A stretch of 54,250 nt of DNA from a virus (Duplodnaviria > Caudoviricetes), in the IMG/VR virus record IMGVR_UViG_3300027589_000005, positions 1 through 54,250 of that record; one strand, given 5' to 3'. The position numbers and the translations under genes are program-made. Under the pieces are notes generated by a model. That model had not been told where the DNA came from. It did no database searches and worked only from the letters and a program-made list of their open reading frames with translations. Positions 15,927 through 50,785 of this stretch are shown here, piece by piece; positions within the stretch are counted from its first letter, which is position 1, and every line of letters begins with the position of its first letter.

Positions 15927-18115
15927 TATCTCCTCCCTAGAGGCTTACCGCCCCTGCGTGGTACAGCGTAAATATCGTTATCATCATTAAATGAATCACT
16001 ATCTGGATCGTAACCTTTTGGTAAATTCTTATAGTACTCAGCTACTGTTTTTGGTGCGTTGTTTCTACGAGAAATACCTTGTTTCTTACTACCTTCATAG
16101 TCCAATTCATTCAACAGTGTACCATTGCCACCATAGATATTCAGGCCCGTAATAGAGACGCCTGCCTTTGCTACATCTCTAATGAATTCTGCAGTACCGC
16201 TTAGGTCAGATTCGTTTTCCTTTCCTCTTTTCTCCAGTGTCTTGTCATCCACTACAGAGACGTTGCCATCTCCATACATGTTTGGTGAGTACTCCGATAG
16301 CTCAATGAACAACCCTCCAAGGGCCAACATCCAAGCATCTAGTCTATGGTCTCCGACCGTAGCGTTTTCGGGCCCGTAGATAGGACGATTGGTTTGTGGG
16401 TTACGCCTTACGATGATGTAGTTTCCAAGTTCGTTTTTTAGTTGCTCATCATCTTTAGGGAATACAAACTTTTCATCTTCAAAGATACGCATTGCGTTTT
16501 CTACAAGGAAGTCTTTCGCGGTCTTTTGGATTTCGCGGCCGTCTACTGGCGACCTCAGAGTTACCTTCGAAGAGAAGTTGAACGACTTGATGATGTCTAC
16601 GATTCGAGCTGCGGACTTTTCTCTTTCTGTTTTCTTTTCTTTTTCTCTCATAGCGAGAGAGTAAACTTGCAAGTCCTCAATAATTGTGTGGCCGTACCCG
16701 TCGTCTGCATAGATATAGTCCAGGTTCCACTTATGAGTGAGGCGAATTACTTCTTCTTTCCACTTAATAGAAGAGAATTCTGACTGGGAGATGTTGATTG
16801 CTTCGAGTCCAATCCACCTATGCCCGTCTGCATCATAGCCAGCCACATAGAACTCAGTACCCGCATTCTTGTTCCAGTCAATGCCCATACACTTGATGAG
16901 CTTCTCGGGTCGCGCCACCCCTAATTTAGTACGCAAAGTATGATTACTAATGGTTTCATAATACGTGTACTCTCTAAGGGCACTCATAATCCAAGAAGGA
17001 CGGAATACAGAAGAGCCACCATCAATAAACTCGGCCATAAACTCAGACATGATAGAGTCTTTGCTCTTGCCCTTGGTAAGAAGGTCTTTAGTTTCGTCCC
17101 ATTGAGGTAGAACTGTAGTTGGGATGTGATCTTCTTTGAATGAGGCATCTTGCATGCACCATTTATAGAAGGCGGCGCGCTTACCAATAGGAGTAGAAGT
17201 AGCAATGATTCGAGTGTTCTTACGAGTAGCCATAATAGGAATAATGGCATCATCAAGAATCTTCTCTGGAATCATATCCATTTCGTCTAGATAGATGATG
17301 TCGGCAGACTGTCCACGCATGGTACCACCAGAAGAGCCGTCTTGCTTGACGCCAACGCCTGAAACGAATCCTTTGATCACGCCACCATTCTTGAACTCCA
17401 TACGTAAAGGAGGAGTTTTAGCATACAAGGAGCCGCTGGCTCCTGTAGTGACTTGGGCAGCTAGCTCGGGACAACGAAGAAGCAAATCTTCCATTTCCTG
17501 AAAGATCGCGTTAATCTGAGCTTGGTAAGGAGTAACGATCATGATCTGAGGGCCGGCGTAAACATTCTGCCCGTTTGATTTACCCTTAGGAATCTTTACA
17601 GTCTCAACAGCATGTAGCAACTTAAGAGCAATGGCAAACGTTTTCCCTGAACGCCGTCCTTCTCTAAGGGCAATTCTTCTCGAAGTACAGCGAATCTGCT
17701 CCTTCTGATAGGGTCTAAGGTACCACTCGTTATCAGTATCCTTAGTAGAATCATCAAAACCAAACATAAGCTCACACCAAGCAACAGGATCTTGTGTGGC
17801 CCGTAGTACTAAAGTGGCGCGCTCACGAGAAATGCCATCTTTGATCATCATCTGATCTACAATTTCAGCAGATCCAGGAGGCAGAGAGTTCTTGATCCCA
17901 CTGCAAGGAATATTGTTCTCACCATACTTAATGTGTTGGCGCGCAATACAAGCAACACAGGTACGATGCCATTCAGGATTGATATCGAACTTCTTCCTAA
18001 GCCAAATGATTTCCGCTTCTGTTAGCTTAACGTAAGGGTCCTGATATTTAACCTTGTATTCATTCTCTGTGTAGAGCCTGTTTCTGATCCAATCTAACGT
18101 AATCTGCTCAGCCAT
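15926..18115 (-). CDS. terL: Terminase large subunit
   Basis: LRPYQ, Walker A GRRSGKT, Walker B IIYLDE, coupling motif TSTP, nuclease motifs GIDW and DHRLDA. Confidence 0.95.
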   Translation of the reverse strand: MAEQITLDWIRNRLYTENEYKVKYQDPYVKLTEAEIIWLRKKFDINPEWHRTCVACIARQHIKYGENNIPCSGIKNSLPPGSAEIVDQMMIKDGISRERATLVLRATQDPVAWCELMFGFDDSTKDTDNEWYLRPYQKEQIRCTSRRIALREGRRSGKTFAIALKLLHAVETVKIPKGKSNGQNVYAGPQIMIVTPYQAQINAIFQEMEDLLLRCPELAAQVTTGASGSLYAKTPPLRMEFKNGGVIKGFVSGVGVKQDGSSGGTMRGQSADIIYLDEMDMIPEKILDDAIIPIMATRKNTRIIATSTPIGKRAAFYKWCMQDASFKEDHIPTTVLPQWDETKDLLTKGKSKDSIMSEFMAEFIDGGSSVFRPSWIMSALREYTYYETISNHTLRTKLGVARPEKLIKCMGIDWNKNAGTEFYVAGYDADGHRWIGLEAINISQSEFSSIKWKEEVIRLTHKWNLDYIYADDGYGHTIIEDLQVYSLAMREKEKKTEREKSAARIVDIIKSFNFSSKVTLRSPVDGREIQKTAKDFLVENAMRIFEDEKFVFPKDDEQLKNELGNYIIVRRNPQTNRPIYGPENATVGDHRLDAWMLALGGLFIELSEYSPNMYGDGNVSVVDDKTLEKRGKENESDLSGTAEFIRDVAKAGVSITGLNIYGGNGTLLNELDYEGSKKQGISRRNNAPKTVAEYYKNLPKGYDPDSDSFNDDNDIYAVPRRGGKPLGRR

Positions 18116-24038: not shown

Positions 24039-24406
24039 AATTCCTCCAAACGCGGGGACTTTTGATGCTGTACTTATTGAATACCAAGTGGCCCTTAGAG
24101 ATGTAAAGATGGCCGCCCCTATAGAGCAAAAAATGTGCTGAAAATTATATGAAAAAGGGGCTTGTTCCTGATTCTGGGGAAAATCGAGGGAAAAGGCTGG
24201 GAAATTGTTTTTGAAAGAGAATTAAAATTGCTTATTGGAAATTGAAAATATGGTAAGTTAGTACCTGGTATTGATAGGAAGCTATTTACTGCCCTGTGGA
24301 CTTGCGAGCCCACCCGGGTAAAGTAAAATGCTTCTATTGAACACATCCTTGCGAAGGGGTGCGGCCAATCATTCTCTCTATGGGCAATACATGCCTTTTT
24401 TTCTAT

Positions 24407-24487
24407 GGATCTAACCCATCCAGAATCCGAAAGGATGCAGCTATACATTCGTGTATGGCGGGCATATGAGGAAGTGATGGGTAGACC
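24407..24487 (+). promoter_or_regulatory. Structured 5' leader, motif A copy 1
   Basis: Closing helix GGATCTAACCCATC/GATGGGTAGACC; conserved core GAATCCGAAAGG...ATGAG. Confidence 0.75.
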
Positions 24488-24498
24488 TTGGAGGACAC

Positions 24499-24732
24499 AT
24501 GTCCAACAACACCACCAGCCTCACCCTGATCCTGGCCACCCTCGTGGTGGCCAGCCTCATGGCGGCCCACCACCACTTCCGCGAGGAAGTGGCGGTGGCG
24601 GAGCGGATCGAGGCGGGCGCTCACGCGCGTGCCTCGGCCGTCCAGGCCCAGCATCGCGTGCTGGAGTGTGTGAAGATGCCGGCCCACTACCACTCTCGAG
24701 AGTGGTGCATCCTCTTCCGCACTCCAAACTAG
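24499..24732 (+). CDS. Small membrane-anchored protein, paralog 1
   Basis: GGAGG RBS, N-terminal hydrophobic helix, ends REWCILFRTPN. Confidence 0.8.
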   Translation: MSNNTTSLTLILATLVVASLMAAHHHFREEVAVAERIEAGAHARASAVQAQHRVLECVKMPAHYHSREWCILFRTPN

Positions 24733-24778: not shown

Positions 24779-24842
24779 ACTATCTACTATAGTGTAGTAC
24801 ACATAGGTGTATTCAGTATGACATACGCCTTTTTTATTCTAT

Positions 24843-24920
24843 GGATCTAACCCATCCGAAACCAAAAGGGCTTAACTGTACGCGGAGTACAGTGGGAGCA
24901 TGAGGTAGATGGGTAGATTC
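24843..24920 (+). promoter_or_regulatory. Structured 5' leader, motif A copy 2
   Basis: Same architecture as copy 1 with compensatory base changes. Confidence 0.75.
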
Positions 24921-24932
24921 ACGGAGGATATC

Positions 24933-25169
24933 ATGTCTAACGTTACCAGCGCCGTTGCAGCCGCCCTGCTCGTCATCCTCACCACCGCGACCTTGGTCGC
25001 GGTGGATGTTCGTCTCCGTAAGGAGATGAAAGAGGCTACACGGGTGGAGGCCGCGGCGGATGCGCGTGCGCGGGCCGTCCAGGCCCAGCACCGCATGCTG
25101 GAGTGCGTCCGTATGCCCCTGCACAGCGATGCGCGAGAGTGGTGCATTCTCTTCCGCACTCCAAACTAG
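24933..25169 (+). CDS. Small membrane-anchored protein, paralog 2
   Basis: GGAGG RBS; clear paralog of 24499-24732. Confidence 0.8.
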   Translation: MSNVTSAVAAALLVILTTATLVAVDVRLRKEMKEATRVEAAADARARAVQAQHRMLECVRMPLHSDAREWCILFRTPN

Positions 25170-28111: not shown

Positions 28112-28440
28112 TTAGTGTGAAGGAAAGATGGGTGGCGCCACCCATTGAGTACCGATCCTAAGGGCCACACCACCCCACCCTAGCTACAGGAGAGTAGCCA
28201 TGTTCACGGAACAGATGTCTGTATGTGTTACTGGTCAAACCACACACGGACACTAAACTCCCGACAGACCAAGTGGATAACTGAGGTTATCCCGTCAAGG
28301 TACTTAGAAGCCTTGACACCAAACTCCTACACCAATCTCTGGGAGTATAATTAAGAGGTTGGCGCCTGCCAGAGCGTGTTATGGCCCCGGGGGAGCGATT
28401 CCCCAACTATTCGGGTAGAAATACCCGCTGGGAGGTTCTC

Positions 28441-28800
28441 ATGAACCACATCCAGATGTCCTTTATTGCGGCGGAGTTCCCCGTCGCCCTGGAGGCCGCC
28501 GTTGAGGCGGCGGCCTCCCTCCCAGCCCCGAACCCGATGGAGGCGGCTTGGGTCGCGGCCTCCATCTCGCCTCTTGCCGAGGGTCGCGTCATTCGCGCCC
28601 CTCGGCGCCCCGTGGCCCGCACCGCGCGAGCGGTGCGGAAGTTCATCGCCCCCCGTATGGCCGCTGCCGCCGTCCTTGTGGCGGCGGTGTCTTTGCTGGG
28701 CCTAACGGCCCTGGTCCCTGCCACCTTCGCCGGCGTCCTGGGCCTCACCGCCCTGACGATCGGCACGCCCTCCTGGGTTGCCCTGGCCACTACCAAGTAG
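28441..28800 (+). CDS. Membrane protein with hydrophobic C-terminus
   Basis: GGAGG RBS; two hydrophobic helices. Confidence 0.75.
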   Translation: MNHIQMSFIAAEFPVALEAAVEAAASLPAPNPMEAAWVAASISPLAEGRVIRAPRRPVARTARAVRKFIAPRMAAAAVLVAAVSLLGLTALVPATFAGVLGLTALTIGTPSWVALATTK

Positions 28801-28882
28801 TGGCCCCCGGTTAGCGTTCCGGGCGTCAAAAACGCATGGTCATAGGTCGCCCCCTTAGGAGGGGCGACCTTTTTCTTTCTAT

Positions 28883-28963
28883 GGTACTCATATCTATTGA
28901 AGCCAAAAGGAGGCAGTCATACAATTTAGTATGATGGGCTTATGAGGTATTAGGTATTGTACC
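28883..28963 (+). promoter_or_regulatory. Structured 5' leader, motif A copy 3
   Basis: GGTAC/GTACC closing helix; GAAGCCAAAAGG...ATGAG core. Confidence 0.75.
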
Positions 28964-28974
28964 TTGGAGGACAC

Positions 28975-37776: not shown

Positions 37777-37814
37777 CCATCTGACCACTCGACCCCTCCG
37801 GGGGTCATTTCTTT

Positions 37815-37879
37815 GAGGCAAACCCTTGCTGGCTGTCTGAAGGGTTCAGATTAGCTGGGCGGACTTGCGGTTTGTCCTT
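37815..37879 (+). promoter_or_regulatory. Structured 5' leader, motif B copy 3
   Basis: GCAAACC/GGTTTGT closing helix; CTTGCTGGC-hairpin-GCTGGGCGGAC. Confidence 0.7.
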
Positions 37880-37890
37880 TGGAGTTTGTC

Positions 37891-38151
37891 GTGAGCAAGG
37901 CCAGCGTTGTCCCTGTGATTTTCTTCGACAGCTGGGGCTGGGCGTACGCCACTTGTGAGGGGTCTCACCCCGACGCGTCGGCCTTTGGGCCGACGGGCAT
38001 CGCTCGTCGAATGACCACCGAGGAGTTGTACGACATGGGGCTCTGGTCCGACATCCCGGACCTCCAGCAGTCCCCCTACAACTTCGCCTTCGAGGCAGAC
38101 CGCCTCGAGGAAAAAGAAGAGGAGGGCGACTGGTCCATCCTCAAATCTTAA
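37891..38151 (+). CDS. Small acidic hypothetical protein
   Basis: GGAG then GTG start. Confidence 0.7.
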   Translation: MSKASVVPVIFFDSWGWAYATCEGSHPDASAFGPTGIARRMTTEELYDMGLWSDIPDLQQSPYNFAFEADRLEEKEEEGDWSILKS

Positions 38152-38415
38152 CCAACAACCGGCTACTCGGAGCCGCAATCCGAGTCCCAAGCGGAGGACC
38201 TTGTCCGCTATAGAAATGCCAGGAACCAGCAACCTCACTACGATAAGTGGTGGGGTTGTTTCTTTCTATAAATAGTTGTGCCCTTAGGGAATATTGGTGG
38301 CGCGCCACTCGTTGCACATAACAAGGCCACGCCATTCTTCCTCCTTATCGGCACTTCTCTTGCCCTTTCAGGGACATGTTCCGCCCCTCGGGCTTAGGTG
38401 CTTTGGAGGTAAGCG

Positions 38416-38586
38416 ATGATCGAGTGTCCGTGGTGCAAGGGGACTGACCGGCTGTGTCAGTCCGATCCAGGCATCGTGATGTGCCTGAACTGTTCAGATT
38501 CTTTCGAGGGGAGCCTGTCCCCAGAACAGGCGTTCGTGGTCCATCCCCCGGAGACGGTCACCGAGGATGCTGACATTCCTTGGTAG
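38416..38586 (+). CDS. 56-aa Zn-ribbon protein with acidic DIPW tail (not in ORF track)
   Basis: GGAGGT RBS; MIECPWCKG...MCLNCS...EDADIPW. Confidence 0.75.
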   Translation: MIECPWCKGTDRLCQSDPGIVMCLNCSDSFEGSLSPEQAFVVHPPETVTEDADIPW

Positions 38587-38617
38587 TGGCACGCCCCCTT
38601 CGGGGGTTTAGTTCATT

Positions 38618-38810
38618 GAGGGGTCCGCAGCCACCTCTCTGAAGGGCCTACAAATAGTAGGTCGCGAAGCTGCGGGTTCGGGGCACGCGCACCCGAACGT
38701 CAGGATGTGGTCGTGGCGCGACCGGCCAGGTATGTTGGTACGGGGTTCATCCTCCCGCTTTACACCAACGTATCGAAGAACTCCCCCCACGGCCGTGGGG
38801 GGAGTTTAGT
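38618..38810 (+). ncRNA. Candidate structured RNA
   Basis: Promoter motif to terminator; no RBS-led ORF. Confidence 0.5.
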
Positions 38811-38878
38811 TTCCCAATAAATAGTGACATGCCAAATCCTCTCCTCACTGGCATTCGCCCTTCGGGCTTGGGTTCGTT

Positions 38879-39168
38879 GGAGATTGAACTGGCGAGTTCA
38901 GTCTTCTGCAGAGACGCATTACCGCCTCCTCCTAAAGGAGGTAATGGTCTTAGAAGGTCGTGACACCAATCACGACTGGCGCTCTGCATAAGCACCACCT
39001 GAGGGCAACTCCCAGCCGGTGCGAACGCCTCCCTCTCCTGGCCTGGTAAGCTGGGGAAGGGTGAAATGTTCCTGGCCTGAGAAGCCAGGTCTGCAAGCCG
39101 AGCCCACTGGGTGAGGACGCTTGCATTGCCGCGCGACTGGGTGATGTTCTCTCGGTTTCGCAATCTCC
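38879..39168 (+). ncRNA. Candidate structured RNA of about 290 nt
   Basis: Begins at the motif +1; GGAGATTG pairs with CAATCTCC just before the terminator. Confidence 0.65.
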
Positions 39169-39307
39169 AAGAGGCCCCCGCGAGGGGGCCTCTTGTTTCT
39201 TCAATAAATAGTTGCGCCAAACTTCCCCCTCTTCTAAGGGCCCAGGTTCAAGTTACCACGTCTATTCGTAGTAGTCCTTCATTGGCCCTTCGGGCCGTGC
39301 GTTCTAT

Positions 39308-39549
39308 GGAGGATGCTCAACACAGCTCCATGGCTACTTAGCCCGGGGTCCGATGTACAGCCCCATCCTTAGTGGAGCGGTGTTGTGGCGTCCCCCTTCT
39401 CCTGTGCCTCTGGTCGTAGGCCCCCGGTGTTTCCGCCACCGGGGGCCTCCCATTGAGGTACGTTGCACACTCCAGGCTCTTCTGGTTTGTTGTGCCTTGT
39501 TGTATCTCCAGGTTTGACTGGACGGGCTCCGCTTTAGGCGGGGCCCTTT
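39308..39549 (+). ncRNA. Candidate structured RNA
   Basis: Begins at the motif +1 with a long irregular hairpin (39308-39395). Confidence 0.5.
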
Positions 39550-39676
39550 ATAATCTATTGGTATGACTGGAGTGCCCTTAGGGGATAATGGGTGGCCGCC
39601 AAATAAATACTGAGCTCCGCCAAATCCCTTCTTATAGACAAAATGCCCTTCGGGCCTTCATTCGCTGGAGGTCAAC

Positions 39677-40018
39677 ATGCTCGTCACTGCAACGTCAGCA
39701 AGCATCGAAGGTGTGGCTTATGGCCACCCCGGTGTCTCTGGGTTCAACTGGCCCATCACAAACCCCGATCCCAGCCACACCGGGGTGCAAGTGCGGCGCC
39801 AATGGGCGCAACAAATGTATCAAGCCATCTACGAATGGTTTGTTACCTTCGGGGACTTCAACGGGGCGCAGGGGTACCCGGAGAAAATCCGAGCCATGTG
39901 CGAGAGTCAAAGAGAGATCGTAGATCATGAGCGGGACATCCAGAGCCTGCTTAACACGATGCCCTGGATCGAGAACAATGGTCGTGGGTTCGTCCCCAAT
40001 CCCGGTTATGATTGCTAA
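39677..40018 (+). CDS. Hypothetical protein
   Basis: GGAGG RBS directly after the promoter motif. Confidence 0.75.
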   Translation: MLVTATSASIEGVAYGHPGVSGFNWPITNPDPSHTGVQVRRQWAQQMYQAIYEWFVTFGDFNGAQGYPEKIRAMCESQREIVDHERDIQSLLNTMPWIENNGRGFVPNPGYDC

Positions 40019-40163
40019 GTCCACAGAGGGTCGTCACATAAGTGGCGGCCCTCTTTCTTTCCTAATAAATATCTCATCACCCGAATCCTCTCTAGGGGCC
40101 AACACGCTTCGCTTAGTTAGTTCTATGAACATTTATTGGGTCTATAGGCCCGTAGGAGCAAAT

Positions 40164-40505
40164 ATGAGCGCGACTTCTTTCAATGGCGGCCGTCACTTCA
40201 CCAGCGATTCGGCACGGGGCGTTGGCCTGGCCACCTGGGCTCTCCAGGGCTTCAAGGCCCACACCGCCATGTACCACGCCTCCAAGTCCAAGAGAGACTT
40301 TGAGGCCTACATGCGGCGAGTCCTGCCCCAGGGGGCGTTCTTGGTGGACGCCCGATGGAGTGAGGAGAACGAAACCTTGGGCTTCGAGCTTGAGTGTGTC
40401 TTCAAGGATGCTCGGATTTGGGCGGACTTTGGGATCCGCCCAGACGGTCGGGAGATCAAGATCACTGGCTGGGAGGGGGACTTCGATCCCAACGCCACCA
40501 AGTGA
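40164..40505 (+). CDS. Hypothetical protein
   Basis: AGGAG RBS; followed by a terminator. Confidence 0.7.
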   Translation: MSATSFNGGRHFTSDSARGVGLATWALQGFKAHTAMYHASKSKRDFEAYMRRVLPQGAFLVDARWSEENETLGFELECVFKDARIWADFGIRPDGREIKITGWEGDFDPNATK

Positions 40506-40562
40506 TCTACGGCCCCCGAAAGGGGGCCTTTGTTTCGGTCCCCCTTCGGGGGTCGGTTCTAT

Positions 40563-40740
40563 GAGAGGGCTCCTTTCTGGAGTTCTACTAAACGAGTGCA
40601 GGAGACGACCGTTGATATGACTTCGAGGCAAAGGTTCCACTCCCGCCTCGCCCAAAAGGGATAAGTGAGCTTGATCACCTCACGAGGAACGTCGATAGTC
40701 AAGGATGAAACAAAGGCTCCCGCAAGGGGGCCTCTTGTTT
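40563..40740 (+). ncRNA. Candidate small RNA
   Basis: Promoter motif to terminator; no RBS-led ORF. Confidence 0.45.
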
Positions 40741-40818
40741 CATAATAAATAAAGCGCCACCATATTCTTCCTTACCGGCCAATGGAGCTTCGCTCTTCTG
40801 TTCCAAGGAGGTGATTCC

Positions 40819-41127
40819 ATGAAGTTCCGGACGTCAGGTTACCCCTACCACAAGGAAGTGACTGAAGCCTTGTCCACCTTGAACGTGGATGAGCTTTGGG
40901 ACTTCTCCCAGCACGCCAAGGCGATCGTCCAAAAGATCGCCGGGGATGACTTGAACATCAAGGAGGTCTTGTTCCGCCCCTCGTTTGGCTGGGGGCGTTC
41001 CATCACCATCACGGGACATTACAAAGGTCCCGACCACCGCTTCGTCGCGCGCCTCTGGGATAACGAGGCCACCTACTTCTACGAGTACCAGCACGAAGCT
41101 GGTCTTGGTTGGCTGGGAGGAAGCTAA
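40819..41127 (+). CDS. Hypothetical protein
   Basis: AAGGAGGT RBS. Confidence 0.75.
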   Translation: MKFRTSGYPYHKEVTEALSTLNVDELWDFSQHAKAIVQKIAGDDLNIKEVLFRPSFGWGRSITITGHYKGPDHRFVARLWDNEATYFYEYQHEAGLGWLGGS

Positions 41128-41128
41128 T

Positions 41129-41398
41129 ATGTTTGAGCAGTGGAAGGTAGCTTACAGGGACTTCAGTGACGAGGAGCAAGCCACTCCCAACTGGAGTGAA
41201 GAGTCTCCCGCTGAGGAGTGTGTCTTCGCACTGGGAGGACTGGAAGCTTGCAAGCTCCTTATCCCCAGGTACGTGGGAGAGTGGGCGATCTTGCGCCGGC
41301 ACGAAGGCGGCTCCTGGCAATGCATGGAGTCTGTCGGGGGCGTGGAGGAAGAACTCTACATGCTCTTGATGGAGGACATGGAGAGCTTGGAAAGCTGA
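41129..41398 (+). CDS. Small acidic hypothetical protein
   Basis: GGAGG RBS; coupled to the upstream gene. Confidence 0.7.
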   Translation: MFEQWKVAYRDFSDEEQATPNWSEESPAEECVFALGGLEACKLLIPRYVGEWAILRRHEGGSWQCMESVGGVEEELYMLLMEDMESLES

Positions 41399-41716
41399 CT
41401 TAAGGGCTGTCACCTGTAATGGGTGGCGGCCCTTATATTCCTTCTACAGTTCATTACAATCTTATTAGAGCTTACATAGAGTAATAAATGAATGTGCCTA
41501 TAGAGGGAAAGTAGGCGCGCCCATACTCCCTTCTACGGGCCCTGGCGTGACTCCGCCAATATGACACTCCTTGGCCCTTCGGGCCTTTGTTTCTTCGGAG
41601 GATGAACTCCGCCTTCCAGACCTTCCATGAGTCGGTCCCGGGCATGTGATCCTTCCATAAGCTGAGGTCCCTTCACTCAAAAGGTGAGGGGACCTTTCAC
41701 TCTCCAGGAGCAAGCA

Positions 41717-41968
41717 ATGAACGAGAACAAGAAGCTCTCTCCAGAGGAAGAAGAGCTCCGGCAAACGATCATCGAAATGAGCGCGTTTGAAATCTTCCAT
41801 CTGATCGCTCAGGTCAGCAAGTGGACTCATCTCGGGAAGAAGGAGAGAGCGCTCGATATCATCGAAATGGCAATCCGCGAACGGGCTCACATCCTGAAGG
41901 AGCGTGCCAAGGCTTCTCCTTCCGAAGAGATCCCGAAGCTTCTCCCCTTCACCTCGGAGTGGCAGTAG
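41717..41968 (+). CDS. Small helical hypothetical protein
   Basis: AGGAG RBS after a structured leader; followed by a terminator. Confidence 0.7.
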   Translation: MNENKKLSPEEEELRQTIIEMSAFEIFHLIAQVSKWTHLGKKERALDIIEMAIRERAHILKERAKASPSEEIPKLLPFTSEWQ

Positions 41969-42566
41969 TAAGCCAGGCCCCTTAGGGGGCCTTTAGTTTC
42001 TCTCTATATATAGTGGCCGTTAGTAGTAGTAAGGGGTCGCGCCAAACATTCGTAAACTACGAATACTATATATAGAGAAGATGTCTTGTAATAAGTCGGC
42101 GGCAACCCAAATACCCCAAACAACATATAGAGATACATTACTCTATATAGCCAAAACACCAAATACCATATAGAGGAGAGGATTGGTTGGCTTGTGGAGT
42201 CATAGCTAATAGATAGAACACACCAAAAACCAGTGACCCCCCAGGGTCACGAGTGTGAACTACCCCTCTTGGAATGCACGGTTTGAATCCAACCCCGAGA
42301 AAAAAAAGAGTCGGTACCTCCGTACCTCGGGGGTCAGCAAAACGAGAATGACGTGATTTCGTTCCAATATATAGTCATGGCCCGTAAGAGTAGTGTGAGT
42401 TTGGCGGCAACCAATATTCATATAGACAATACATATAGAGAAGAGAACAAAGGAACCAATCCTATCCTAAGGGCAAGATACATATAGCAGCACAAGCCAA
42501 CTGGTGAGAAGTGCGTGTAGCACGAGAGAGAATATGTTTATGTTTATTTATTGTTGGGATGGTACC

Positions 42567-42616
42567 AGGTATCACTACACCTCCAAGAGGTATCACTACA
42601 CCTCCAAGAGGTATCA
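42567..42616. repeat. 21-bp tandem repeat, about 2.4 copies
   Basis: AGGTATCACTACACCTCCAAG twice, then AGGTATCA. Confidence 0.9.
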
Positions 42617-42811
42617 AGCCCACTCCAAGGAGTACCACTCCAGACAACTACATCCCAACTACTATACACATTCCATTGTCTCTTTGTTACTTATATGTTC
42701 TATATGGTTGGCCGTTAAGGAGAAAATATGGTGCCGCCACTTGTTACAAGAGAAGGGCATTGCTGCCCTTCGGGTTCTGTTCTTTGCTACCGTACAGCCT
42801 AAGGAGGCTAC

Positions 42812-43129
42812 GTGGAAAAGTGGGAAGCACGGCAGTTCATCACTGCCATTGTCAGGGAATCTGATGACGATCAGGTAGTCGAGGATACTTACCAGGCCTT
42901 GTTGGCTGATGGAGAACCCGAAGTCATTGGTTCTCTCATTTACGAGTTGGTGTGCGCCGCTTGTTGTGCGTGGCACCAAGTTCCTAAGTGGAGGGAGCGA
43001 CTTTCCGTTTACCTTTACGGGCCTGAATGGCTCGAGTATATCGATGCTGAACTTCAGCATCAGATTGAACTCCGTAAGAAACCTACTCCCCAAGAGGTGG
43101 AGTATGGGAAAACCTTTGACTCTCCATAA
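42812..43129 (+). CDS. Hypothetical protein
   Basis: AAGGAGG then GTG start. Confidence 0.75.
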   Translation: MEKWEARQFITAIVRESDDDQVVEDTYQALLADGEPEVIGSLIYELVCAACCAWHQVPKWRERLSVYLYGPEWLEYIDAELQHQIELRKKPTPQEVEYGKTFDSP

Positions 43130-43184
43130 ACGCAGTGCCCTTCGGGTTCTGTTCTCTGGTTCACCCCAACAAAGGAGCCACTAC

Positions 43185-43352
43185 ATGGACCAAACCCGAA
43201 TCCAAAGACTGAAGGCACAAGCAGACGATGACATCGACAGTGCGTTGTGCTGGACACTCGTCGTCGGGTTCGCGCTAATGCTTGCCGCCACTATCAACAA
43301 AGCATGTAGCGAAGAACCAAAGCGTCACGACACAGCATCTCACCACCAATGA
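43185..43352 (+). CDS. Small membrane protein
   Basis: AAGGAG RBS; one hydrophobic helix. Confidence 0.65.
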   Translation: MDQTRIQRLKAQADDDIDSALCWTLVVGFALMLAATINKACSEEPKRHDTASHHQ

Positions 43353-43441
43353 TCATGCTCTGTCGCCAGTGCTATCTCCCAGCAGTTATTAGCGTCCCTT
43401 ACATCGGCTACGTCTGTCTTTCGTGCTTCTGGAGGCAATGA
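43349..43441 (+). CDS. 30-aa CxxC...CxxC micropeptide
   Basis: MIMLCRQC...VCLSCFWRQ; ATGA overlaps at both ends. Confidence 0.5.
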   Translation: MIMLCRQCYLPAVISVPYIGYVCLSCFWRQ

Positions 43442-43707
43442 TGCGATACCTACAGTGTCCCAGGTGCGACGAGATCGATCTCGTCGTTGAGATGGATGGA
43501 GAAGGGACCTGCGCTGTTTGCCACACCACATTCGACGCACCCGACAATATCCCTGTCCCATGCTCATGCACAGAGTTCTGCATTTGCAATGAATGTATTG
43601 GCGCCAAACTCTACATGTATGAAAAAGGCGTCCCTCCAGAAGATATGGGTGCCCTTGATAAATGGGAAGCAGAAGAAGAACTGCGCCACATCAACAAGGA
43701 CATCTAA
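43438..43707 (+). CDS. Cys-rich Zn-finger protein
   Basis: CPRC, CAVC and CSC...CICNEC; GGAGG RBS. Confidence 0.7.
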   Translation: MMRYLQCPRCDEIDLVVEMDGEGTCAVCHTTFDAPDNIPVPCSCTEFCICNECIGAKLYMYEKGVPPEDMGALDKWEAEEELRHINKDI

Positions 43708-50297: not shown

Positions 50298-50695
50298 GGG
50301 GTCGAACTGGTTTAGACGCTGCAGAGTCAGGCTATGTATTGCGTGGCCCAGAGCATGTCTGGGTTATCAACATGTAACGTGAAAGTGCCAACAACACTGA
50401 TCACTTCGCTGCCGCTGCCTAAACAGTAGCTCAGCAGAACGTCCGGGTCCCACTACTGGATCCGGTGTATGGGGGACCACTTCATAGTGGTAAGGTCACC
50501 CATGCAAGTCACCACCACTCTCGCACTACGGGCATTGTCCTACCGTAGCCGTGAGTACCAAAAGACACGAATGGTTCACGAAAGAACCAATCTGCCCCTA
50601 AGAAAGCAGAACTTCGCTGGCAAGTATAGCCAGACACCCACGTAGAGATGCACATCCGTCTGTGGCGGACCCGGGTTCGACTCCCGGCGACTCCA
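50298..50695 (+). ncRNA. ssrA: tmRNA, tag ANNTDHFAAAA at 50387-50422
   Basis: 5' GGGGTCG pairs with 3' CGACTCC-A including the G3-U alanine identity pair; T-arm CCGGG-TTCGACT-CCCGG; canonical tag reading frame. Confidence 0.95.
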
Positions 50696-50785
50696 CTCTT
50701 TCAAACGATGTTCCCAAGTGCGCATGGCAAACGCACTTTCACCGCAAGTACTTCGGGGCAAGCCAAAGCCCCTACGGAGCATAGA

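What the first reader, a model, noticed from the sequence alone, without database searches (positions are those of the whole stretch)
38879..39200. ORF-free RNA of about 290 nt closed by a perfect end-to-end helix
Seen: starts at the predicted +1 with GGAGATTG, whose complement CAATCTCC (39161-39168) sits right before a strong terminator. The interior has many hairpins (TGAACT/AGTTCA, CATTACC/GGTAATG, GTCGTGA/TCACGAC, CCTGGC/GCCAGG). No RBS-led ORF and no resemblance I can see to RNase P, SRP or 6S RNA. This is the best single candidate for a novel ncRNA gene.
Basis: partly seen in the sequence, partly recalled or inferred. Interest (0 to 1): 0.72.

Follow-up and report, generated by a model that had tools for sequence, protein, structure and literature searches.

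The report
Conserved non-coding RNA in freshwater phage
This stretch of an uncultured freshwater phage most likely encodes a folded RNA that makes no protein, belongs to no catalogued RNA family, and keeps a small core in a distantly related phage; its function is unknown.

Summary
GGAGATTG (38879-38886), its complement CAATCTCC (39161-39168), the four named hairpins and a strong terminator (39168-39195) are all present. No codon signal, protein family or Rfam family fits.

New evidence supports a real RNA gene:
- A core of about 70 nt (39064-39127) is 88% identical in a phage whose polymerase is only 32% identical, at the same position downstream of that gene.
- A third variant turned up in a metagenome.
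- Every core difference lies in a loop or is compensatory: 3 double changes in one 8-bp helix. The indels of 2+2+1 nt break any reading frame.
- The invariant internal loop fits the published k-turn definition.
- In one metatranscriptome, a contig over 39008-39174 has the highest depth (45) of all contigs laid on 6 kb.

The end-to-end helix is only partly supported. Only GGAGA/UCUCC is shared by all three variants. In this RNA a 12-bp 5' hairpin outcompetes the helix (pair probability 0.02).

The 5' end is unmapped and the function is unknown. My best guess is a compact protein- or RNA-binding scaffold RNA with a swappable 5' domain. It is a new family of a known kind and is known from only two phage lineages. 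This scan has not found it on other DNA.

The parts
38815..38825 (+). CAATAAATAGT box directly after the previous terminator. It may be a sigma-70-type -10-like element or an operator. It is deleted in a natural variant that keeps the RNA.
   Evidence: 4 copies in the window with up to 1 mismatch, against 0.46 expected. It recurs after terminators (families D2 and D4). The deletion of 38698-38855 in the X3 contig removes it (table 5).
38856..38878 (+). Repeated leader or promoter-like motif: a G+C hairpin with a TTCG loop, then an 11-nt T-rich tract ending just before GGAG.
   Evidence: 7-8 copies in 35500-43500 (families D1, D3, D10). The same motif precedes the homologous RNA in L005 and L013. 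L005 and L013 stay alike up to GGAGA and then diverge.
38879..39168 (+). Body of the proposed non-coding RNA, about 290 nt if it starts at GGAG. The 5' end is inferred, not mapped.
38879..38906 (+). 5' terminal hairpin H1 (12 bp, including 2 G.U pairs). It buries the GGAG and competes with the end-to-end helix.
   Evidence: pair probabilities are 0.92-0.98. L013 has an analogous local GGAG-burying hairpin; in L005 the predicted fold pairs GGAGA with the 3' UCUCC instead.
38907..38988 (+). Variable 5' domain: a 7-bp helix (38907-38913 with 38982-38988) enclosing two hairpins (38921-38948 and 38956-38977). It is not alignable with the other two variants.
38997..39019 (+). 23-nt segment identical in L013 and 16 of 23 conserved in L005. 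In this RNA it is predicted to pair with 39130-39156.
39036..39056 (+). Window-specific inserted hairpin with a 7-nt loop. It is a diverged duplicate of hairpin 1, sharing 10 nt. Two natural substitutions keep its pairing.
   Evidence: X3 changes 39038 C>T and 39040 G>A give U.G and A-U pairs.
39064..39070 (+). Invariant single-stranded AAATGTT junction in front of hairpin 1.
39071..39089 (+). Conserved hairpin 1. It has a 6-bp invariant stem; the loop is 7 nt here and 9 nt in L005 and L013.
39092..39125 (+). Conserved hairpin 2. The outer 7-8 bp helix has 3 compensatory pair changes. The invariant internal loop has the k-turn pattern: 39098-39102 opposite 39112-39119, with bulge G39113 A39114 G39115 and tandem G39116.A39101 and A39117.G39100. 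On top sits an apical 4-bp helix with a triloop.
   Evidence: The k-turn definition comes from passages of PMC8191799.
39130..39156 (+). Window-specific 3' segment predicted to pair over about 22 bp with 38997-39023. It is absent from L005 and L013.
39161..39168 (+). CAATCTCC, the complement of the first 8 nt. Only TCTCC is shared by all three variants. It is predicted single-stranded here.
   Evidence: It is not a general feature of the other 15 terminators listed.
39168..39202 (+). Intrinsic terminator: a 12-bp stem, GCGA loop and T-rich tail.
   Evidence: Homologous terminators follow the RNA in L005 and L013.

Best explanation
38879-39200 (+ strand) is a stand-alone gene for a structured, non-translated phage RNA of a family not yet catalogued.

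Layout:
- It is transcribed rightward, like all genes of this half of the contig.
- It begins at or shortly upstream of the GGAG that ends a repeated hairpin/T-rich motif.
- It stops at the 39168-39195 terminator.

The RNA is modular.
- A 5' domain is freely swapped between relatives.
- A conserved 3' core follows: junction AAAUGUU, hairpin 1, and hairpin 2 with a k-turn-type kink.
- A short UCUCC sits in front of the terminator. It can pair with the 5' GGAGA.

Most likely mechanism (inferred, not shown): the kink folds the core into a compact shape. That shape is recognised by a protein or another RNA, so the molecule acts in trans as a stable scaffold, decoy or regulator early in infection. 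End pairing or the 5' hairpin keeps ribosomes off its GGAG.

Shown here: the conservation, the compensatory changes, the lack of coding signal, and presence at high depth in one RNA library.
Inferred: the strand, the 5' end, the kink, the partner and the role.
For: 1. Conservation. nhmmer and blastn match 39064-39127 to L005:17660-17728 at 88% over 69 nt. The polymerases of the two phages are 32% identical.

2. Synteny. The RNA lies 3.3-3.9 kb downstream of the polymerase gene in 3 of 3 contexts. There is one copy per genome: 1 hit in the window and 1 in the 99%-complete G001.

3. Structure-preserving divergence.
- 18 modelled pairs are 100% paired over 53 cells.
- 3 pairs are changed on both sides; 15 of 500 shuffles do as well.
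- Slid controls reach 17-40% paired with 0 double changes.
- The remaining core differences sit in loops.
- Indels of 2, 2 and 1 nt destroy any frame.

4. A third variant, L013 (141 nt), comes from a close relative of L005 (82-96% nt identity elsewhere). It has the same core and tail but a different 5' domain. The similarity stops right after GGAGA.

5. The same cassette grammar occurs in all three: terminator, AT-rich box, hairpin/T-rich motif, GGAG, body, UCUCC, terminator.

6. The invariant internal loop matches the published k-turn definition: a 3-nt bulge followed by tandem G:A and A:G. It has 3b:3n = C:C, a combination solved for the Actinomyces-1 k-turn, and 3b = C is reported to favour folding in metal ions (passages of PMC8191799).

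7. Metatranscriptome run X20. Of its 7 contigs laid on 36000-42000, the one at 39008-39174 has the highest depth, 45.3. Two pieces that lie inside protein-coding genes (40818-41031 and 41626-41826) have depths of 5.7 and 5.9. Most of the 6 kb has none, which argues against contaminating DNA.

8. No codon signal. No protein family for the overlapping ORFs.

9. The natural variant X3 has 6 substitutions in the RNA and none in the 75-nt core. 3 of the 5 at predicted paired sites keep the pair.
Against: - There are only two independent lineages. L005 and L013 are near-identical in the core, so the covariation rests on a single comparison.
- The two lineages exchange DNA: 97% identity over 792 nt at 28192-28981. 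The 88% could therefore reflect recent transfer rather than long purifying selection.
- Thermodynamics is weak for the core alone (z -0.59 in the window, -1.35 in L005) and for the L013 RNA (z -0.81).
- The minus strand folds about as well: z -3.51 against -3.73, and better in L013 and L005.
- All RNA evidence is one run kept as contigs. It gives no strand and no ends, and it does not cover the 5' 130 nt.
- Some strains (X12, X19) carry unlike sequence upstream of 39193, so the cassette is dispensable or replaceable (table 7).
- Pfam models found no k-turn-binding L7Ae protein and no Nop-domain protein in G000-G002.
- Pairs broken in X3: 38981 G>T and 39023 G>A.
- No target or partner was identified.
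Confidence: 0.62

Rival explanations
1. The RNA is a trans-acting antisense regulator. Its single-stranded UCUCC tail, or another exposed stretch, pairs with the GGAG-containing 5' ends or ribosome-binding sites of phage or host messages and tunes their translation or stability.
For: - UCUCC just before the terminator is kept in 3 of 3 variants. It is predicted unpaired in the window (0.97-0.98) and mostly unpaired in L013.
- It is not seen directly before any of the other 15 terminators listed.
- Many phage transcripts or leaders here carry GGAG right after the repeated motif.
- A stand-alone unit with an intrinsic terminator is typical of bacterial small RNAs.
Against: - Five bases are too few for specific trans pairing.
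- In L005 the tail is predicted to pair with the RNA's own 5' end (0.93).
- No complementarity longer than 12 nt was found between the variable domains and 150 kb of held phage sequence, which is chance level (E 0.2-4.5).
- A k-turn and multi-hairpin core is not needed for an antisense RNA.
- The host is unknown, so host targets could not be searched.
Confidence: 0.12
2. There is no function of its own. The unit is a decayed gene cassette or spacer between regulatory modules, and the shared 69 nt are a recently exchanged DNA fragment in a highly mosaic region.
For: - The region is mosaic. In other strains cassettes are deleted or replaced: joints 36489/36933, 38697/38856 and 39596/40080, and unlike sequence before 39193.
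- The window and L005 share recently exchanged segments.
- The core alone is not unusually stable.
- Three ORF-free units lie side by side from 38590 to 39640.
Against: - Decay would not leave all stem differences compensatory and all others in loops.
- Decay would not keep an exact k-turn pattern, the junction and the UCUCC tail while the flanks are unalignable.
- It has the highest RNA contig depth on the 6 kb.
- The position relative to the polymerase gene is conserved in 3 of 3 contexts.
- Between 35500 and 43500 the core is the only window-to-L005 nucleotide match that is neither coding sequence nor part of the repeated regulatory motifs.
Confidence: 0.1
3. The conserved core works at the DNA level or in cis, not as a free RNA. 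It could be an inverted-repeat binding site, an origin or recombination site, or an RNA element that acts on the transcribing polymerase, like an antitermination or pausing signal.
For: - Both strands fold equally well.
- Compensatory changes also preserve DNA inverted repeats.
- The region is packed with terminators (28 against 7.7 expected), where read-through control would make sense.
- The phage encodes its own unusual polymerase with an invariant DDDGD loop.
Against: - The internal loop is asymmetric, and its G.A pattern exists only on the + strand RNA.
- The + strand has G.U pairs (2 in H1, 3 in the inserted hairpin, 1 in hairpin 2), which would be mismatches in DNA or on the minus strand.
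- The unit ends in its own strong terminator and is followed by a new regulatory module, not by a gene that it could control.
- The RNA is abundant in a metatranscriptome.
Confidence: 0.08
4. The region encodes a small protein: a 55-aa GTG ORF at 38824-38991, a 35-codon TTG start at 38884, or the 157-aa minus-strand ORF at 38747-39220.
For: - The ORFs exist.
- There is a weak codon score of 4.0 in the frame of 38824-38991.
- GGAG precedes TTG at 38884.
Against: - The GGAG-to-TTG spacing is 1 nt.
- GC by codon position is flat.
- 0 of 4 ORFs have a Pfam hit, and the only PHROG hit has E 0.037.
- The 5' domains of the three variants are unalignable, so no peptide is conserved.
- The conserved core has frame-breaking indels.
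- The minus-strand ORF runs through two terminators and a repeated box.
Confidence: 0.03

Closest known systems
Stand-alone phage-encoded small RNAs (general kind)
   Same: An own transcription unit between regulatory signals, an intrinsic terminator, no ORF, and placement among early small genes.
   Different: It has no sequence or Rfam relation to any described one. It is longer and more elaborately folded than typical antisense RNAs. The constant part is at the 3' side with a k-turn, and no target is known.
k-turn-containing structured RNAs from comparative genomics, e.g. the Actinomyces-1 motif (PMC8191799, passages read)
   Same: [quoted passage not shown] The 3b:3n is C:C, as in Actinomyces-1, whose k-turn was shown to fold in Mg2+ and was solved by crystallography. 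It also comes from non-coding regions and has unknown function.
   Different: A different RNA: Rfam scans gave no hit. Here -1b:-1n is U:G, which that paper did not test. 4b:4n is G:C rather than C:G. Folding was not tested here.
6S RNA
   Same: An abundant, stable RNA of 150-300 nt with paired ends that acts on a polymerase. This phage has its own polymerase gene 3.3 kb upstream.
   Different: There is no long rod with a central bubble and no Rfam 6S hit at E<=10. The core is two short hairpins. No evidence links it to a polymerase.
phi29-type packaging RNA (pRNA)
   Same: A phage RNA of similar size whose 5' and 3' ends pair and whose sequence varies while the fold is kept (recalled from general knowledge).
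   Different: No Rfam pRNA hit. This phage has a T4-type large terminase and belongs to a different, large-genome group. The end helix is not the favoured fold here.
GOLLD / ROOL large ornate RNAs of phages (search listing of PMC12286853 only)
   Same: Phage-borne structured RNAs of unknown function found in lake or metagenome data.
   Different: By recall, those are several-fold larger. They are in Rfam, and they were not matched here.

Membership tests
Any Rfam 15 family | Covariance-model score at or above the family's gathering score | tested here: not met
   The window at gathering score gives only the tmRNA at 50298-50698. Scans of 35500-43500 at E<=10 and of L024 and L013 at E<=5 give only weak chance-level hits, at or below 26 bits and all below their gathering scores.
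k-turn (structural motif) | [quoted passage not shown] | tested here: met
   Sequence pattern only.
- C helix: 39102-39105 with 39109-39112.
- Bulge: G39113 A39114 G39115.
- Tandem pairs: G39116.A39101 and A39117.G39100.
- Then C39118.C39099 and G39119-C39098.
The pattern is invariant in 3 of 3 variants. The definition is from PMC8191799.
k-turn (structural motif) | Actually adopts the tightly kinked conformation, in Mg2+ or on protein binding | not testable with these tools
   The 3b = C rule predicts ion-induced folding. The -1b:-1n U:G pair was not covered by the passages read.
k-turn RNP (L7Ae / Nop-type partner) | A k-turn-binding protein encoded by the same genome | tested here: not met
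   PF01248 and PF01798 gave 0 of 3 phage records, including the 99%-complete G001. A host or a divergent partner is not excluded.
Retron msr-msd RNA | Paired ends next to a reverse transcriptase gene | tested here: not met
   PF00078 gave 0 of 3 records. Neither neighbour of the RNA is a protein gene here.
tRNA-like / tmRNA-like | Cloverleaf or tRNA-like domain detectable by ARAGORN or the Rfam tRNA/tmRNA models | tested here: not met
   ARAGORN at default gave 0 in the window and 0 of 3 units. Relaxed thresholds gave inconsistent noise. There was no Rfam tRNA hit. Hairpin 1 and its duplicate have 7-nt loops of anticodon-loop size, but the L005 loop has 9 nt.
6S RNA | Extended rod with a large central bubble; Rfam 6S models | tested here: not met
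   The fold is multi-branched, and there was no hit.
Protein-coding gene | Codon periodicity, a frame-preserving substitution pattern and a ribosome-binding site at proper spacing | tested here: not met
   Core indels are 2+2+1 nt, and the GGAG-to-TTG spacing is 1 nt.
Independent transcription unit | Mapped 5' end at the proposed +1 and 3' end at the terminator | not testable with these tools
   The only RNA run is kept as contigs without ends or strand. The terminator was confirmed by pattern only.

The most novel reading that the evidence does not exclude
The RNA is a programmable or arms-race molecule. A constant k-turn scaffold recruits a phage or host protein, possibly the phage's own two-barrel polymerase encoded 3.3 kb upstream. 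The freely exchanged 5' domain, and the anticodon-loop-sized hairpins, supply specificity. It could act as a decoy against a host defence nuclease, or as a regulator or template of that polymerase. In that case the neighbouring ORF-free units, one of which (36040-36213) is also abundant in the metatranscriptome, would be a battery of such RNAs.
Probability: 0.1. Interest if true: 0.85.

Novelty: new member of a known kind. Interest (0 to 1): 0.58.

Why it matters
Phage-encoded structured RNAs with a defined fold are few. Most known phage RNAs are tRNAs, tmRNAs or short antisense RNAs.

This one combines three features:
- a small, strictly kept core with a k-turn;
- a 5' domain that is swapped even between near-identical phages;
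- abundance in an environmental RNA sample.

It belongs to a widespread but uncultured freshwater phage. The surrounding 6-kb stretch (36000-42000) was found in DNA runs of 18 studies, of which X3 and X12 were checked to hold this RNA. That phage also carries an uncharacterised single-chain polymerase and an unusual hairpin-based regulatory grammar.

If the RNA has a protein partner, it offers a handle on how this phage group controls early infection. It also adds a new entry to RNA family catalogues. Its known range of two lineages, and the lack of any functional clue, limit its weight for now.

Tried and rejected
Homologue hunting
- blastn against GenBank phages found no match.
- Four IMG/VR pattern scans were run. 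Besides the window's own record (which the tool may leave out), they found only G001. L007, L025, L026 and L027 are chance matches: 21 bits partial for L007 and 0 of 3 for the others.
- The metagenome scan gave 16 loci, of which 4 are real. L016, L019 and L020 are identical to the window over the RNA, and L013 is the new variant. The other 12 match only the 19-nt pattern.
- The GTDB genome scan gave 0 of 6 real hits, so I found no prophage or host copy.
- Polymerase relatives P0002 (56% identical) and P0003 (46%) exist in Logan assemblies.

Paralogues
- The core model finds one copy per genome.

Partners
- L7Ae, Nop and reverse transcriptase searches were all negative.

Antisense targets
- None beyond chance.

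tRNA-likeness
- Rejected.

Strand by thermodynamics
- Uninformative.

Local hairpin for 38997-39019
- The fold seen in L013 is not well supported in the window. There the segment pairs with 39130-39156.

RNA-run coverage
- The 5' 130 nt of the RNA and most of the 6 kb have no X20 contig. Contigs show presence, not absence, so I draw no conclusion about processing or about silent neighbours beyond the argument against DNA contamination.
- The start points of the RNA contigs do not coincide with the proposed +1 sites.

Earlier notes of this scan
There were no look-alikes in other genomes.

Literature
- Four full-text searches returned no description of this RNA or phage group. I read passages of PMC8191799 and PMC12045711 only. 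The other papers were seen as listings and abstract starts.
- Supplements were not consulted.
Full report
CONTEXT

The window is an IMG/VR virus fragment of 54,250 bp, about 36% complete.
- Structural genes lie on the minus strand up to about 23.5 kb: a T4-type large terminase, a capsid protein and a nuclease-domain protein.
- From about 24 kb on there are many short rightward units.
- It carries a tmRNA (50298-50698) and no tRNA.
- It has no cultured relative. The terminase is 30% identical to that of a Moorella phage.
- The 1430-aa protein at 31259-35551 has no Pfam, PDB or GenBank-phage match. An alignment with five metagenomic relatives keeps an invariant TDLQGDDDGD loop. I did not test that further.
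- The phage is common in fresh water. 20 public runs from 19 studies hold part of 36000-42000, and one of them may be the source sample.

THE OBSERVATION

- The terminator is strong.
- The 290-nt stretch folds better than all 200 shuffles (z -3.73).
- The exact 8-nt complement of the 5' end occurs in the last 30 nt in only 12 of 20000 shuffles.
- There is no codon periodicity in any frame. The best six-frame codon score inside the candidate is 4.0, against 8-18 in real neighbours.
- The four overlapping ORFs match no Pfam family and have only a PHROG hit at E 0.037.
- No Rfam family matches.

The candidate is the middle one of three adjacent ORF-free units between 38590 and 39640.

THE CASSETTE GRAMMAR

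The region 35500-43500 is built of short cassettes. Each cassette runs:
1. terminator;
2. an ATAAATA-type box;
3. often a GGTGGCGC palindrome;
4. a G+C hairpin with a TTCG-type loop;
5. a T-rich tract of 10-12 nt;
6. a G-rich start, usually GGAG.

The GGAG at 38879 is the end of that motif.
- In two cassettes the GGAG(G) sits 6-7 nt before an ATG (38416 and 39677) and can serve as the ribosome-binding site.
- In three others the motif is followed by a leader of about 65 nt and a separate GGAG before the start codon.

So the motif is more than a ribosome-binding context, and a start site after it is plausible. Equally, the hairpin plus T-rich tract looks like a weak terminator or attenuator downstream of the AT-rich box. 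Nothing here maps a 5' end.

RELATIVES

A profile of the polymerase found one distant IMG/VR relative: G001, 147 kb, 99% complete, polymerase 32% identical.
- Candidate positions 39064-39127 match L005:17660-17728 at 88% over 69 nt (E 7e-15 by blastn, 1.3e-6 by nhmmer).
- That unit has the same grammar: hairpin motif, GGAGA at 17547, a body of about 193 nt...GTCTCC at 17739, and a terminator.

A metagenome scan with a 19-nt core pattern gave 16 loci.
- Three are identical to the window across the RNA (L016, L019, L020).
- One, L013, is a third variant of 141 nt.
- Twelve are chance matches.

L013 is a close relative of G001 (82-96% nt identity elsewhere).
- It shares G001's upstream region up to GGAGA, and its core and tail.
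- Its 5' domain is unrelated.
- It contains a 23-nt string identical to window 38997-39019.

The RNA is thus modular: a swappable 5' part and a constant 3' part. No copy was found in 185,579 species genomes (0 of 6 pattern hits real). No second copy was found in any phage record.

STRUCTURE OF THE CORE

The alignment of the three variants fits two hairpins that ViennaRNA also predicts for each sequence alone.
- Hairpin 1 (39071-39089) has an invariant 6-bp stem. Its loop is 7 nt here and 9 nt in the others.
- Hairpin 2 (39092-39125) has an outer helix of 7-8 bp. In it, 3 pairs differ on both sides and stay paired, and one extra A-U pair is present in L005 and L013.
- Hairpin 2 also has an invariant 4-bp apical helix with a triloop, in which the only other substitution lies.
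- Overall, 18 pairs are 100% paired over 53 cells. 15 of 500 shuffles reach the observed covariation, and partners slid by 1-3 columns give 17-40% pairing and no double change.
- Indels of 2, 2 and 1 nt exclude a conserved reading frame.

The invariant internal loop of hairpin 2 has exactly the published k-turn pattern:
- canonical helix;
- three-nucleotide bulge (G39113 A39114 G39115);
- tandem G.A and A.G (G39116.A39101, A39117.G39100);
- then C.C and G-C.

The passages I read in PMC8191799 define the motif that way. They state that 3b = C favours folding in metal ions. They also report a solved k-turn with 3b:3n = C:C. This is a sequence-level match. Folding was not tested, and -1b:-1n is U:G here.

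The window RNA has two additions.
- An inserted hairpin (39036-39056) is a diverged copy of hairpin 1, sharing 10 nt and a 7-nt loop.
- A 3' segment (39130-39156) pairs over about 22 bp with 38997-39023.

THE END-TO-END HELIX

- In the window the first 12 nt form a local 12-bp hairpin, with pair probabilities of 0.92-0.98.
- The 8-bp end helix has probability about 0.02. Enforcing it costs 4.5 kcal/mol (-147.3 against -151.8).
- In L005 the 5-bp GGAGA/UCUCC helix is the predicted fold (0.93). In L013 it is not (0.09), and a local GGAGAG/CUCUCU hairpin forms instead.
- UCUCC directly before the terminator occurs in 3 of 3 variants and before none of the other 15 terminators listed.

So the complementarity is real and probably selected. 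Whether it closes the molecule, alternates with the 5' hairpin, or is an exposed tail is open.

EXPRESSION AND POPULATION DATA

In the one metatranscriptome that holds part of the 6-kb stretch, 7 contigs were laid.
- The one at 39008-39174, which covers the conserved core, has depth 45.3.
- One at 36040-36213, in another ORF-free tract, has depth 27.8.
- Two wholly aligned contigs that lie inside protein-coding genes (40818-41031 and 41626-41826) have depths of 5.7 and 5.9.
- Three partial ones have 3-10.
- Most of the stretch has none, which is not what contaminating DNA would give.

These are contigs: they give no strand and no ends, and absence of cover means nothing.

A 67.9-kb DNA contig (X3) deletes 38698-38855. 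That removes the 3' part of the preceding unit, its terminator and the ATAAATAGT box. It keeps the hairpin motif and the RNA.
- The RNA there has 6 substitutions, none of them in the 75-nt core.
- 3 of the 5 at predicted paired sites keep the pair. Both changes in the inserted hairpin do.
- Two break terminal pairs.

Other strains (X12, X19) have unlike sequence upstream of 39193, so the cassette can be replaced.

STRAND

Thermodynamics does not decide. The + strand is inferred from:
- the T-tract after the terminator;
- the orientation of all neighbouring genes and motifs;
- six G.U pairs that would be mismatches on the other strand;
- the k-turn pattern, which exists only on the + strand.

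One C.A mismatch at the top of hairpin 1 would be a G.U on the minus strand. That is a point against.

WHAT IT IS AND HOW IT MAY WORK

The evidence supports a stand-alone, non-translated, structured RNA gene of a new family.

A k-turn normally serves to fold an RNA back on itself or to bind a protein. I therefore favour a compact scaffold that is recognised by a partner and acts in trans. I found no L7Ae, Nop or reverse-transcriptase gene in the three phage records, no antisense target and no tRNA-like fold. The partner and role remain inferred.

Rivals, with the evidence set out in their sections, are:
- an antisense or anti-ribosome-binding-site regulator using the UCUCC tail;
- a functionless mosaic remnant;
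- a cis- or DNA-level element;
- a small protein.

NOVELTY AND SCORE

- There is no Rfam family.
- Four full-text searches found no description in print. These cover open-access papers and preprints only.

It is a new family within a known kind, phage-encoded structured small RNAs. Interest is moderate to good. The gene looks real and has an unusual modular build in an unusual phage. But only two lineages carry it and its function is unknown.

Noticed in passing
window 36040-36213: A metatranscriptome contig of depth 27.8 lies in another ORF-free, hairpin-rich tract downstream of the polymerase gene. It is the second highest depth on the 6 kb laid. blastn found no counterpart in L005.
   Followed up: partly
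window 28192-28981 and L005:7058-7848: These segments are 97% identical over 792 nt, between phages whose polymerases are 32% identical. 29252-29547 is also 85% identical to L005:8590-8887. This points to recent DNA exchange between the two lineages.
   Followed up: no
window 24396-24510, 24828-24941, 29823-29934: Three copies of an element of about 115 nt all match L005:4093-4211, at 90%, 74% and 72%. This is a repeated, cross-lineage conserved non-coding or leader element.
   Followed up: no
window 36489-36933, 37504-37790, 37874-38156, 38697-38856, 39596-40080: Strain-level cassette polymorphism in public assemblies. Whole small-gene units are deleted or replaced by unrelated sequence, with joints next to the repeated regulatory motifs (table 5).
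   Followed up: partly
window 35500-43500; also L005:17440-17560 and L013:5490-5590: The same regulatory grammar recurs before nearly every unit and is kept in the distant relative: terminator, ATAAATA box, GC palindrome, TTCG hairpin, T-rich tract, G-rich start. Whether the hairpin motif is a promoter for the phage polymerase or an attenuator is open.
   Followed up: partly
window 31259-35551: The 1430-aa protein has an invariant TDLQGDDDGD loop across 6 sequences. It has no Pfam, PDB-sequence or GenBank-phage match. Only 5 relatives were found among 5.8 billion clustered proteins.
   Followed up: partly
window 50298-50698: Rfam finds a full-length tmRNA (82.7 bits), but ARAGORN at default settings reports none.
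   Followed up: no
window 38590-38810 and 39212-39550: The two units flanking the candidate also lack codon signal. Apart from their regulatory motifs, they have no nucleotide match in L005.
   Followed up: partly
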